The notes beneath the pieces were generated by a model. It did not search any database and was not told where the DNA came from. It was given only the letters and a program-made list of their open reading frames with translations. Of a stretch of DNA of 64,000 nt, positions 23,570 to 27,800 are shown piece by piece. The translations under genes were made by a program, and so were the position numbers. Within the stretch, counting starts at the first letter, position 1; each line of letters begins with the position of its first letter. The stretch is from the NCBI RefSeq assembly GCF_009914755.1, contig NC_060925.1. One strand, given 5' to 3'. This stretch comes from the human T2T-CHM13v2.0 reference genome, Homo sapiens.

Positions 23570-24617
23570 TGATATCTTCTTTTTCTTTTCTCAACTTCTA
23601 TTTTAGGTTCAGGAGGTACATGTGCAGGTTTGTTACGTGGGTAATTGCATGTTGCTGGGGTTTGGTGTACAAATGATTTCATCACCCAGCTAGTGAGCAT
23701 AGTCCCCAGCAGGTAGTGTTTTGACCCTCACTCTCCTCTCACCCTGCGCCCATCAAGTATATATTAAAATGATTTTCACTATCAAGCTAATTAACATATT
23801 CATGTCTTCACATAGTTATCACATGTTGGGAAAGGATAATACTTAAGATCTACACTCCATGAACTTAAAGCATACATTATTATTATCTATTGTTACCATG
23901 TTGTACGTTAGATCTCCCTAACTTATTCATCTTATAATGGCAAGTTTGCATGGCTGTACCTGTAGTATTTTTCTTTCTCTGCCTGGCTTATTTCACTTAG
24001 CATAATATCCTCTAGGGTCATTCATTTTGTTACAAAGGGCCAAATTTCATTCTTTTTAATACTGAATGATATTCCATTGTAGATAGATAGATAGATAGAT
24101 AGATAGATAGATAGATAGATAGATGATAGATATCACAATTCACATACTACTCATCTATCAACACTTAGGTTGTTTCCATATTTTGGGTTTTGGGAATAAT
24201 GCTGCAATGAACACAGGAATGCAGATATCTCTTCAAGATAGTGATTAGATTTCTTTTGTCTGTGAAAGGATAATTATATAAAATGGCATCAAGTTCTCGG
24301 CTCACTGGAACCTCTGCTTCCCAGGTTCAAACAATTCTCCATGCCGCAGCCTCCCAAGTAGCTGGGATTACAGGTGCCCACCACCACACCTGGCTAATTT
24401 TTATGGTTTTTAGTAGAGACAGGGATTCGCCATGTTGGCAACTCTGGTCTTGAACTCCTGACCTCATGTAATCTGCCTGCCTCAGCTTCTCAAAGTGCTG
24501 GAATTACAGGTGTGAGCCAACACACCCACAGGTATATAAATTTATACCTAAAAGTATAATTGCTGCATCATATGGTAAGTCTTTAATTATTTGAGGACCC
24601 TCCATGCTGTATTCCAT
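23570..24617 (-). mobile_element. L1 3' region (old L1M plus an L1PA-like 3' fragment) with nested partial Alu (about 24297-24530) and (AGAT)11 at 24081-24124; truncated at the breakpoint
   Basis: L1 3'UTR motifs on the - strand. The same element continues intact across 43766 in the right copy. Confidence 0.8.
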
Positions 24618-24862
24618 TTGCCCACTTCTAAGAAGTTCCCAATTAAAAATCTCATCGACTTTATTTCCTAAATTCTCTATTTTCTATTAGAAAATATTTC
24701 AAAGATACATCTGTAGTAGAATGTGAGCATCCCCAGTGCCCAATGCAAGGAAGTCACTATAGAATATCTCTTGAGGAATCATGGAATAAATGAATAATCC
24801 AATGGATTCTCAGGAGAAAAATGAGGTTTTATGAATCAATCATAACATTTTTACCTCAACAG

Positions 24863-27800
24863 GTCAGAGATTGTCGTCTGACTGGTCTTCTTGATCTTGC
24901 ACTGGAGAAGGATTACGTGCGTTCTAAGATTGCCGAATATATGAACCATCTCATTGACATTGGTGTTGCAGGGTTCAGACTTGATGCTTCCAAGCTCATG
25001 TGGCCTGGAGACATAAAGGCAATTTTGGACAAACTGCATAATCTAAACAGTAACTGGTTCCCTGCAGGAAGTAAACCTTTCATTTACCAGGAGGTACATC
25101 AATACTTATATGCCTATAAAATATCATCTTATTCGTTAGAAAATTAATGGAAGATTTAATTAAAAATGCAATTTCTGTAGGATAAGGAATGAGACATTTA
25201 CATAAAACATAATGGTTGTACCAATTTACATTCCCACCAAAACAGTGTTCTTTAACCTCCTCTTCTTCACATACAGCATATCTAATTCTTTATCACAACA
25301 TGTTTTATGGATGTACACAGAATGTAGGATACTGATAATAGTTATGTCTTTACTTTCTTTGGATAATGAAACAAGTTAATATTTATCAAGGAATTTCAGT
25401 CGATACTAAATGTTTTATTAGTGTGAGCTCTTATTATTATCATTGATGTAGAAGACTAAAAATTAGGTAAGTATTTTCACAGGACAACAGGTATCTTTGA
25501 CATTATGCTTCTTTCAATATTGTAGCCTATACTTTATCAAATAAAAGAATATAAGAATATTACCTGTTGAGATAATAGGAATAAGAAAACCATTTTGCAC
25601 ATTTCGTGTAACAAACAGGACCAGGCATGGTGGTTCGTGCATGTAATCTCAGCACTTTGGGAGGCTGCGGCAGGGGGATTGCTTGAGGCCAGGAGTTTGG
25701 GACCATCCTGGACGACATAGCAAGACCCTGTCTCTAAAAAACAAAACAAAACAAGACAAAAAGAAATAATAAATAGCTTAATTTATTAATAAATAACAAA
25801 TAGCATAAAGCTATTTTTATATAATATTAACTTATTGGTTAAAATGCTTTAAAGTCCTTACACAAAATGTTATTGTTTCCTAAATTTCTACTAGGTAATT
25901 GATCTGGGTGGTGAGCCAATTAAAAGCAGTGACTACTTTGGTAATGGCCGGGTGACAGAATTCAAGTATGGTGCAAAACTCGGCACAGTTATTCGCAAGT
26001 GGAATGGAGAGAAGATGTCTTACTTAAAGTAAATAAATACAACTTTTCCCTGAAGTATTTCATGGATCTATTAGTCATACTACCTCAGTGTGACTTATCT
26101 TCTGGAACATTCTTATTCAGACAACTATCAAAGAGTCAATTGTGAATGATAAGTATTCTAGTGCCCTAAACTCTAATCAATCATCTTTTGTATTTAGAGT
26201 GTCTGTCACAAGGCAATATGCCTAGGAACGCTAAACATACCCTAGGAGTTTTCATCTAAGTACGAGATGAATATACTGGATTTGACTGATGTTTGCATAT
26301 AATCTTTTAAAGCCAGGTTATTATTAAAATGATCCTATCATTTATGAAGTATGTACAAAGTTTCCATCCTGTAGAATTTACATGTATTATATGAATTAAA
26401 AATATAAAAAATATTTATATTATAACAATACAGTATTGAAGCCTTATTTTAATCTAGTTTGACATTCTGTATAATGTGATATGGATATTGATCCTTCTGG
26501 AGTGCCTCTAAATGATAATGTGCTGAAACCTCTGAAAGGACCTTTTTTAATAACAAAAATCTTATATTTGTAATATGAATGTAAGTATTCCATACATGTA
26601 TATACAAATATGGACCATACATGTAGATTACACATGTGTGTGTGTTTGATGTGTGTGTATATATATGTGTGTGTGTGTTTGTGTGTGTATATATATATAT
26701 ATCTCTTACAGGAAAAGCATTTAATTAGAGAAAGAATTTAATCTTCAGATGCCATGCCTTACAGAGAGAGATGCACAGTTAAGTTACTCTCAAACTGTTG
26801 TGAAATGATACATCAACGTATATCTTATTTTTCAAAAATAGGAACTGGGGAGAAGGTTGGGGTTTCGTACCTTCTGACAGAGCGCTTGTCTTTGTGGATA
26901 ACCATGACAATCAACGAGGACATGGGGCTGGAGGAGCCTCTATTCTTACCTTCTGGGATGCTAGGTAGAAAACCAAGTTCTCTATTTTTTTAACACGTCT
27001 TTTAATGATGGCAAGAATATTCTGACATCCTATGAAAATATAATTATGTAACTTCCAGGCTGTACAAAATGGCAGTTGGATTTATGCTTGCTCATCCTTA
27101 CGGATTTACACGAGTAATGTCAAGCTACCGTTGGCCAAGACAGTTTCAAAATGGAAACGTAAGTTTTGGAGTTGTTCAATATATCCTTTTCTGAAGAAAA
27201 AGGAAGCAATCTTATTCTAACTTAACATGACAACTATTAATTATATATTTATTCAACAAATATTTAATTGATTGTAAACTGGATACAGGGCTGTGATTTT
27301 AGTAATGTAGGTTATATTAAAGGAGTAAAATTTATATTCTCCATTGACAAAGAGTATGCAAGCTGTTTCAGAGATATGACAAACATCCCCTTAGCCCGCA
27401 GGGAAACAAAAAACAAAAAACAGAAAAACACTCAAAACTAAGAGCTAGACACAGGGATTAAAATATATACTTCGAATAAGTACCTACCTCAGGGCTGATA
27501 GGAAGATTATACATGCCAACACTTTTAGAGAACTTAAAACATCATCTGCCCGTAGTGAGAACAATATAAATGTTTGTTAAATACTTTTAAAAAGTTATAT
27601 GGAATAGAAAGAAATGAATCAATTGAGCTGAGTTAAATAGGGAAAGTATCATATAAGAGGAAGGAAATGATATGTACTAAAGAATAGAAATTTAGAGAGT
27701 ATTCCAAGAAAGGTAAGAATGAGAAAAATATTTGGGAGTATGGTAAAGACATTAATCTGATGAGAAGTTTCAAAAAGGAACAGAGAAATTACAGTGTAAA

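What the first reader, a model, noticed from the sequence alone, without database searches (positions are those of the whole stretch)
24600..25250. Template-switch scar at the birth of AMYP1: L1/amylase/L1/amylase interleave with a perfect 36-nt templated insert
Seen: the left arm's L1 stops at ...GTATTCCAT (24617) and joins amylase intron 3 (AMY1 reads ACACAT-TTGTCCAC) through a 3-nt CAT microhomology. About 590 bp later, in intron 4, 25208-25243 (CATAATGGTTGTACCAATTTACATTCCCACCAAAAC) is an exact reverse complement of 43733-43768, the very next L1 bases beyond the breakpoint. It returns to amylase via an AAAAC microhomology, and the AMY1 intron has TAAAAC-AGTGTT with no insert. Inference: three serial template switches (FoSTeS/MMBIR-like or polymerase-theta-like) in one event made the truncated pseudogene and the inner edge of the inverted duplication. 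The right arm, with its intact L1, is the ancestral context.
Basis: partly seen in the sequence, partly recalled or inferred. Interest (0 to 1): 0.78.

Follow-up and report, generated by a model that had tools for sequence, protein, structure and literature searches.

The report
Template-switch scar founding human AMYP1
The 5' end of the amylase pseudogene AMYP1 carries a real copying scar in which DNA synthesis hopped back and forth between an old L1 repeat and the AMY2A gene, recording at single-base level how the first extra, inverted human salivary amylase gene copy was made.

Summary
Window 25208-25243 is an exact reverse complement of 43733-43768. These are the L1 bases that follow the point where the left inverted-repeat arm stops (24617).

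The parent of AMYP1 is AMY2A (99.7% identical), not AMY1 (about 93%). AMY2A shows the same CAT and AAAAC microhomologies and has no insert. The net insertion is 35 nt.

All three AMYP1 copies in this genome carry both the junction and the insert.

New here: the other side of the same AMY2A intron-3 break lies only 2-6 nt away. It is a 532-bp inverted AMY2A fragment joined, through 1 nt of microhomology, to sequence downstream of AMY1A. That spot is 45.6 kb to the left, outside the window.

The whole inverted AMY1B block therefore sits in one break of a duplicated AMY2A copy. Its two ends show short alternating stretches of 532 bp, 590 bp and 35 nt. Both inverted arms include an earlier homeologous crossover, so a tandem AMY2A-AMY1 duplication, or the nascent strand itself, served as template.

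Best reading: one microhomology-primed, replicative template-switching event of the MMBIR/FoSTeS type. It is a new instance of a known mutational kind at a well-known locus. The readable literature models this step by NAHR plus an inversion-deletion.

The parts
4390..24617 (-). Left arm. This is the inverted copy of the AMY1 segment (AMY1B plus its upstream flank), ending inside an old L1 at 24617. The block continues left of the window through AMY1B's downstream flank.
   Evidence: I1-I4: arms 4390-24617 / 43766-64000, printed as 100% complementary; 18 substitutions in 24616 aligned bases against the AMY1A segment.
24615..24617 (+). Junction J4, a CAT microhomology shared by the L1 (...TTCCAT) and AMY2A intron 3 (...ACACAT).
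   Evidence: The junction 31-mer has 3 exact matches in the genome, one per AMYP1 copy.
24618..25207 (+). 590-bp AMY2A-derived stretch: the 3' part of intron 3, coding exon 4 (24863-25093) and the start of intron 4.
   Evidence: the first-unit copy is 99.66% identical to AMY2A, 92.5% to AMY1A and 94.6% to AMY2B; the window copy has 1 substitution in 595 bases against AMY2A. Exon limits are read.
25209..25243 (+). 35-nt templated L1 insert. The identity run is 36 nt, 25208-25243. It is entered through a single shared C and left through AAAAC (25239-25243).
   Evidence: It is present in 3 of 3 AMYP1 copies.
25244..43732 (+). Rest of AMYP1 (AMY2A intron 4 to the 3' end) plus the intergenic spacer, collinear with AMY2A and the AMY2A-AMY1A intergenic region up to the L1.
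   Evidence: 22 substitutions in 18525 aligned bases..
43733..43768 (-). Donor-type L1 36-mer in its intact context. The repeat's coding sense is on the + strand here.
   Evidence: the 31-aa frame across it has 79154 first-look candidates genome-wide, and 150 of 150 scored candidates matched. This marks a high-copy interspersed repeat; the name L1 is recalled.
43766..64000 (+). Right arm: the upstream flank and 5' part of AMY1C, in direct orientation.
   Evidence: 8 substitutions in 20227 aligned bases against the AMY1A segment.

Best explanation
This is a mutational scar, not a functional element.

A haplotype, or a nascent strand, already carried AMY2A-AMY1 twice in tandem, joined by a homeologous crossover downstream of AMY1. 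On it, DNA synthesis stopped in intron 3 of the second AMY2A copy, at a small hairpin-prone inverted repeat.

The growing end then primed on 1 nt of microhomology on the opposite strand, 1.3 kb beyond the crossover. It copied 29.4 kb backwards through AMY1, making AMY1B, as far as an old L1. It returned through CAT to the spot it had left in intron 3, skipping 2-6 nt. It copied 590 bp, hopped back to the exact L1 position it had left, and copied 35 nt. It then returned through AAAAC to the exact AMY2A position and carried on.

Everything right of the break became AMYP1. On the other side of the break only 532 bp of AMY2A remain, followed by a 7.7-kb deletion (2-nt microhomology, TC) that removed the promoter and first exons.

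The result is a pair of 29.4-kb inverted arms, which allow later flips, and a pair of direct AMY2A-3'/AMYP1 repeats. Published work says these direct repeats drive the later gains and losses of two AMY1 copies at a time.

Shown: the junction sequences, the parent assignments, the abutting breakpoints, and the crossover present inside both arms.

Inferred: replicative copying, the order and direction of the switches, the single-event status of the 7.7-kb deletion, and the role of the hairpin.
For: - The insert is the exact continuation of the L1 at the first junction. AMY2A is uninterrupted at both sites.
- A 532-bp inverted AMY2A piece (99.8% identical) ends at AMY2A position 68249, while AMYP1 starts at 68252 (locus coordinates). 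The two ends of the inverted block therefore sit in one break.
- Microhomologies at the five non-homologous junctions are 1, 2, 3, 1 and 5 nt.
- AMY1A and AMY1B downstream flanks are identical to AMY1C's up to 115387. They then switch to the AMY2B-downstream type. Of 64 informative sites before the switch, 62 are AMY1C-type. All 31 sites after a 67-bp identical tract are AMY2B-type. Both arms run on to the same end point.
- All pieces are similarly young. Substitution counts are 3 in 15688, 8-18 in 20-29 kb, 18-22 in 18525, 1 in 595 and 0-1 in 530.
- J1, J2 and J4 are each present 3 times, once per repeat unit, with 0 hits for the reversed control pattern.
- The intron-3 break site folds as single-stranded DNA at -7.6 kcal/mol, z = -3.57, with 0 of 200 shuffles as stable.
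Against: - Abutting break ends are also the classic mark of a two-ended double-strand break with rejoining.
- Two junctions have only 1 nt of microhomology, which is compatible with plain end joining.
- No intermediate haplotype is known. The preprint 10.1101/2023.11.27.568916 says none is seen.
- Substitutions are not clearly enriched next to the junctions: 3 fixed differences in the first 1.6 kb of AMYP1, against about 0.1% overall.
- Only one genome was examined.
- The arms are homogenised by conversion, so the crossover could have spread from one arm to the other after the event.
- The published origin model sits in a supplement I could not open.
Confidence: 0.62

Rival explanations
1. Stepwise route of recombination, breakage and rejoining. 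Two rounds of unequal crossover at the downstream paralogs give three tandem AMY2A-AMY1 units. A three-break inversion-deletion then joins the ends. The 35-nt insert is a small templated fill-in of the pol-theta end-joining type at an extra nick or break 590 bp away.
For: This route yields the same large-scale sequence, by my own derivation. [quoted passage not shown] Abutting break ends fit a clean double-strand break. Very short microhomologies fit end joining.
Against: It needs two hypothetical intermediates, three to five breaks, and the loss of a 45-kb fragment whose terminal 35 nt nevertheless reappear 590 bp inside the partner. The return to the exact points of departure on both templates is expected for copying and is not expected for ligation of fragments.
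Confidence: 0.25
2. One single replicative catastrophe starting directly from the one-copy ancestral haplotype. The homeologous switch downstream of AMY1, the 7.7-kb skip and all the microhomology switches happen in one run. The displaced nascent strand folds back and serves as template for the inverted copy.
For: The crossover lies in only a 67-bp identical tract within roughly 90%-identical paralogs, with two mosaic sites just before it. The short 532-bp and 590-bp stretches lie symmetrically about the break. All pieces are equally young.
Against: Nothing distinguishes it from a pre-existing tandem duplication. Self-templating over a 16-kb loop is speculative.
Confidence: 0.1
3. Two unrelated events: a simple L1/intron-3 junction first, and a later independent 35-nt insertion or gene conversion in intron 4.
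For: None beyond the 590-bp separation of the two sites.
Against: The insert begins at the very bases where the first junction cut the L1. There is no flanking homology to support conversion. All 3 of 3 copies carry both features.
Confidence: 0.02

Closest known systems
MMBIR / FoSTeS complex genomic rearrangements (mechanism recalled from the literature; MMBIR at this locus is described for rare AMY2 variants in 10.1101/2023.11.27.568916, passages read)
   Same: Several junctions in cis, 1-5 nt microhomologies, templated insertion from a nearby template, copy-number gain with an inverted segment, and short stretches between switches before long processive copying.
   Different: Here it concerns the founding AMY1B/AMYP1 structure. 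The readable papers attribute that structure to NAHR steps. Each return lands at the exact point of departure on both templates.
DUP-TRP/INV-DUP structures (recalled: Carvalho et al. 2011)
   Same: Relative to the one-copy arrangement, the AMY1 segment is triplicated with the middle copy inverted, flanked by duplicated sequence.
   Different: No pre-existing inverted repeat mediates either junction. Both ends of the inverted block use 1-3 nt microhomology and sit in one break.
Published origin model for the three-copy haplotype (PMC10705236 version 1: two NAHR events plus an inversion-deletion; version 2 refers to fig. S25, not seen)
   Same: Same start and end structures. AMYP1 is taken as a single incomplete duplication of AMY2A. 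Multiple steps are assumed, with no surviving intermediates.
   Different: The passages I could read do not mention junction-level microhomologies, the 35-nt insert, or the 532-bp reciprocal fragment.
Polymerase-theta templated insertions (recalled)
   Same: A short (35-nt) templated patch bounded by microhomology near a junction.
   Different: The patch lies 590 bp from the main junction, and the same event copies 29.4 kb.
Template switching early in break-induced replication in yeast (recalled: Smith, Llorente and Symington 2007)
   Same: Repeated dissociation and re-invasion within the first kilobase before stable copying.
   Different: There the switches are between homologous templates. 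Here they are between unrelated sequences with microhomology.

Membership tests
MMBIR/FoSTeS-type complex rearrangement | Short microhomology (about 1-5 nt) rather than long homology at the junctions | tested here: met
   J1 T (1 nt), J2 TC (2), J4 CAT (3), insert entry C (1), insert exit AAAAC (5)..
MMBIR/FoSTeS-type complex rearrangement | Templated insertion copied from a nearby sequence | tested here: met
   A 35-nt insert identical to the adjoining L1 bases.
MMBIR/FoSTeS-type complex rearrangement | Several junctions in cis, with inversion and copy-number gain | tested here: met
   Five microhomology junctions plus one homeologous junction. The AMY1 segment is present direct, inverted and direct.
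MMBIR/FoSTeS-type complex rearrangement | Raised point-mutation density next to the junctions | tested here: inconclusive
   3 fixed differences in 1.6 kb against about 0.1% overall. The numbers are too small to decide.
MMBIR/FoSTeS-type complex rearrangement | Arose in a single replication event | not testable with these tools
   Needs population and archaic data on co-occurrence of the junctions. Only 3 of 3 units of one genome could be checked.
DUP-TRP/INV-DUP | Inverted triplicated segment between duplicated segments | tested here: met
DUP-TRP/INV-DUP | One junction formed by recombination between pre-existing inverted repeats | tested here: not met
   Both ends of the inverted block are microhomology joins in unrelated sequence.
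NAHR | Breakpoint inside long, highly similar paralogous sequence | tested here: not met
   This holds for J1, J2, J4 and the insert. Only the crossover downstream of AMY1 lies in paralogs, which are about 90% identical with a 67-bp identical tract.
L1 retrotransposition or L1-mediated transduction | 3' end of the element with a poly(A) tail and target-site duplication | tested here: not met
   The insert is an internal piece of the repeat in the sense opposite to its coding frame, with no A-tail or duplication. The L1 is only a substrate.

The most novel reading that the evidence does not exclude
The whole founding of the human multi-copy AMY1 haplotype was one replicative catastrophe of six template switches, started at a hairpin in AMY2A intron 3, with the displaced nascent strand copied back on itself. 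This covers the tandem AMY2A-AMY1 repeat, the inverted AMY1B, the truncated AMYP1, the 7.7-kb loss and the 35-nt patch. Its four unique junctions would then be all-or-none markers. They could settle whether Neanderthal and Denisovan AMY1 gains share the human event.
Probability: 0.15. Interest if true: 0.8.

Novelty: new member of a known kind. Interest (0 to 1): 0.6.

Why it matters
AMY1 copy-number gain is a textbook case of human dietary adaptation. Every multi-copy haplotype is thought to descend from one founding three-copy structure, whose origin and date are disputed. The commentary PMC11770207 (passages read) reports conflicting date estimates from the two 2024 studies and sets them against a possible origin before the roughly 800-kyr split from archaic humans.

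The junction chain gives a base-level mechanism for that founding step. It shows that the step was not plain NAHR. It explains at once why the structure has inverted arms, which allow recurrent flips, and direct AMY2A/AMYP1 repeats, which allow gains and losses of two copies.

It also supplies four genome-unique junction words (J1, J2, J4 and the insert) that mark the event itself rather than read depth.

Tried and rejected
- **Pfam scan.** Four frames across the repeat gave nothing at or above the curated score cut-off. The L1 name therefore rests on recall plus the genome-wide copy count.
- **Rest of the locus.** Repeat units 2 and 3 were checked only through k-mer counts and the 3-kb loci around the 36-mer.
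- **Downstream of AMY1C.** My first guess for the ancestral sequence there missed. Two small fetches solved it.
- **Papers not held.** The Science 2024 paper and Samuelson 1990 are not held. Groot 1990 was not looked up and is cited only from reference lists. bioRxiv supplements, including fig. S25, are closed.
- **Literature searches.** Six searches found no text describing this junction: AMYP1; amylase+AMY1+microhomology; AMY2Ap; amylase/AMY1B/'templated insertion'; DUP-TRP+amylase; AMY1+FoSTeS. The 'templated insertion' search asked for any two of its three terms; none of the 12 papers listed (of 106 found) contains the phrase. DUP-TRP+amylase gave 0 papers.
- **Simple inversion** between the L1 and intron 3 was considered and rejected. 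It predicts the L1's other half next to the 532-bp fragment, and that is not seen.
- **Dating.** An age from 3 substitutions in 15.7 kb would be roughly 50-700 kyr at an assumed 0.43e-9 per site per year. This is too loose, and too exposed to gene conversion, to use.
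Full report
**Coordinates.** Window coordinates are used unless stated otherwise. 'Locus' coordinates are chr1 minus 103,400,000, in the 200 kb fetched from the window's own assembly.

**1. The observation**

- The left arm of the large inverted repeat reads ...GTATTCCAT and ends at 24617. Amylase intron sequence follows.
- The right arm, read on the minus strand, has the same bases and continues without a break into the 36-mer at 43768-43733.
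- That 36-mer recurs, exact and in the same sense as the left arm, at 25208-25243. It has no other match in the window with up to 3 mismatches, and none of 100 shuffles gave a match.
- The inverted-repeat arms are 4390-24617 and 43766-64000, printed as 100% complementary. They stop exactly at the junction.
- AMY1B lacks 35 nt at the insert site.
- Genome-wide the 36-mer has 11 exact matches, all inside the amylase locus.

**2. The parent gene**

Exon mapping of the 200-kb locus gives this order:

- AMY2B, AMY2A and AMY1A, all on the + strand;
- a stray single exon on the - strand;
- an AMY1B-type gene on the - strand;
- an AMYP1 copy;
- a further AMY1.

The 590 bp between the two L1 pieces are 99.66% identical to AMY2A, against 92.5% to AMY1A and 94.6% to AMY2B. 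That AMYP1 is a partial AMY2A copy is already in print:

- PMC10705236;
- PMC11485256.

I read passages of each.

Against AMY2A both junctions are clean:

- AMY2A intron 3 shares only CAT with the L1 at the first junction.
- AMY2A intron 4 is uninterrupted at the insert site and shares AAAAC with the L1 at the exit.
- The entry into the insert shares a single C.
- AMY2B and AMY1A also lack the insert.

**3. One event**

- The insert begins with the very CAT at which the first junction left the L1.
- Deleting the 590 bp restores a continuous L1. Deleting the 35 nt restores a continuous AMY2A.
- A later, independent insertion would have to pick those bases by chance.
- All 3 of 3 AMYP1 copies in this genome carry both junction and insert, with identical sequence around them.

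**4. The other end of the break**

This part lies outside the window.

- The spacer between the tail-to-tail genes AMY1A and AMY1B contains a 532-bp inverted piece of AMY2A at locus 116743-117274. It corresponds to AMY2A 67718-68249 at 99.8% identity and carries coding exon 3.
- It is followed by an inverted copy of the AMY2B-AMY2A intergenic region. That copy is the '18 kb' block already noted in PMC4498156.
- The fragment ends at AMY2A 68249. AMYP1 starts at 68252. Only 2 nt are missing if both microhomologies are credited to AMY2A, and 6 nt if neither is.
- That end is joined to AMY1A's downstream flank through a single shared T (junction J1).
- The fragment's other end is joined to intergenic position 60026 through TC (junction J2). 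This deletes the 7.7 kb that held the AMY2A promoter and first exons.
- J1, J2 and J4 each occur 3 times in the genome, once per roughly 94-kb unit, with no hit for the reversed control pattern.
- In the window's own unit, J1 and J2 lie at about -20,983 and -20,455 in window coordinates.

**5. The arms contain an older crossover**

- The downstream flanks of AMY1A, AMY1B and AMY1C are identical up to locus 115,387.
- From 115,455 onward AMY1A and AMY1B are 99.5-100% identical to the AMY2B downstream flank. AMY1C keeps a sequence only about 90% like either.
- Of 64 informative sites before the switch, 62 are AMY1C-type. All 31 after it are AMY2B-type. The switch lies in a 67-bp identical tract.
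- Both arms run 1.3 kb past this crossover to the same end point (116,743, which equals intergenic position 44,339).
- The template of the inverted copy therefore already had AMY1 followed by the AMY2B-AMY2A intergenic region. That means either a tandem AMY2A-AMY1 duplication or the nascent strand of the same event.

**6. Reading**

The inverted block consists of the 532-bp fragment, 15.7 kb of intergenic sequence, and 29.4 kb of AMY1 segment. It sits with both ends in one AMY2A intron-3 break.

- Going out from the break on each side there is a short stretch (532 bp and 590 bp) followed by another discontinuity.
- The path alternates between two templates and always returns to the point of departure.
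- This pattern, together with 1-5 nt microhomologies and a copy-number gain, fits replicative, microhomology-primed template switching of the MMBIR/FoSTeS type. The mechanism is recalled from the literature.
- Because the two arms are identical, the spacer between them can flip. The original orientation cannot be known. In the first unit of this genome the AMYP1 segment is indeed inverted relative to the window.
- The break site folds into a hairpin as single-stranded DNA (-7.6 kcal/mol, z = -3.57, 0 of 200 shuffles as stable). Both breakpoints lie in an internal loop of its 3' arm. Whether this caused stalling is inference.

**7. Ages**

Copy-versus-parent substitution counts:

| Piece | Substitutions | Aligned bases |
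|---|---|---|
| Intergenic block | 3 | 15,688 |
| AMYP1 plus spacer | 18-22 | 18,525 |
| AMY1 segment | 8-18 | 20-29 kb |
| 590-bp piece | 1 | 595 |
| 532-bp piece | 0-1 | 530 |

- In AMYP1 plus spacer the substitutions are clustered: 18 of the 22 fall in 6 kb.
- All pieces are young and, apart from the clusters, compatible with one age. Conversion between copies makes any date unsafe.

**8. Rivals**

- A break-and-rejoin route gives the same sequence. It runs through three tandem units and a three-break inversion-deletion, the model stated in PMC10705236. It needs more steps and does not explain the exact returns.
- A single catastrophe starting from the one-copy haplotype cannot be excluded.
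- Two unrelated events are effectively excluded.

**9. What is in print**

- The readable papers assign AMY1 copy changes to NAHR and rare AMY2 variants to MMBIR. These are 10.1101/2023.11.27.568916, PMC13144329 and PMC13564047; I read passages.
- They describe the founding step as multi-step, with the model in a supplement I could not open.
- PMC11485256 contains neither 'microhomology' nor 'MMBIR'.
- No search found text on this junction.
- The Science 2024 paper is not held and Groot 1990 was not looked up, so prior description cannot be ruled out.

**10. Verdict**

This is a real, single-event template-switch scar. It belongs to a known mechanistic kind at a locus of wide interest.

Noticed in passing
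L020:6743-7274 (chr1:103516743-103517274); equivalents in the other two units, about -20,983 to -20,455 in window coordinates: A 532-bp inverted AMY2A fragment carrying coding exon 3 lies in the spacer between the tail-to-tail AMY1 genes. It is the left half of the broken AMY2A copy whose right half is AMYP1.
   Followed up: yes
L015:8220-8257 (AMY2A intron 3): A hairpin-prone inverted repeat (12 paired bases with an internal loop; -7.6 kcal/mol as single-stranded DNA, z = -3.57). Both AMY2A breakpoints fall in its internal loop.
   Followed up: partly
chr1:103562341-103581519 (L025-L027) versus window 24602-43768: In the first repeat unit of this genome the AMYP1-plus-spacer segment is inverted relative to the window. 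The truncated L1 there sits beside a + strand AMY1. This fits the recurrent flips between the inverted arms described in print.
   Followed up: partly
window about 33,240-39,240: 18 of the 22 substitutions between the AMYP1 spacer and its AMY2A-side parent fall in 6 kb. The first-unit copy has a different cluster, 10 substitutions in 2 kb. This looks like conversion tracts or exchange between diverged alleles.
   Followed up: no
L020:5329 and 5344 (locus 115,329 and 115,344): Two isolated AMY2B-type sites sit among AMY1C-type sites just before the 67-bp crossover tract. They could be mosaic repair or later mutations in AMY1C's flank.
   Followed up: no
window 7664-8013 and 15055-15404 (mirrored at 60376-60725 and 52985-53334): A pair of 350-nt direct repeats, 88% alike and 7.4 kb apart, lies upstream of each AMY1. 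They are probably the two LTRs of the retroviral insertion known upstream of AMY1 (recalled).
   Followed up: no
window 24996, 25312, 26221: Three substitutions shared by all three AMYP1 copies against AMY2A of the same genome. The first lies inside the retained exon.
   Followed up: no
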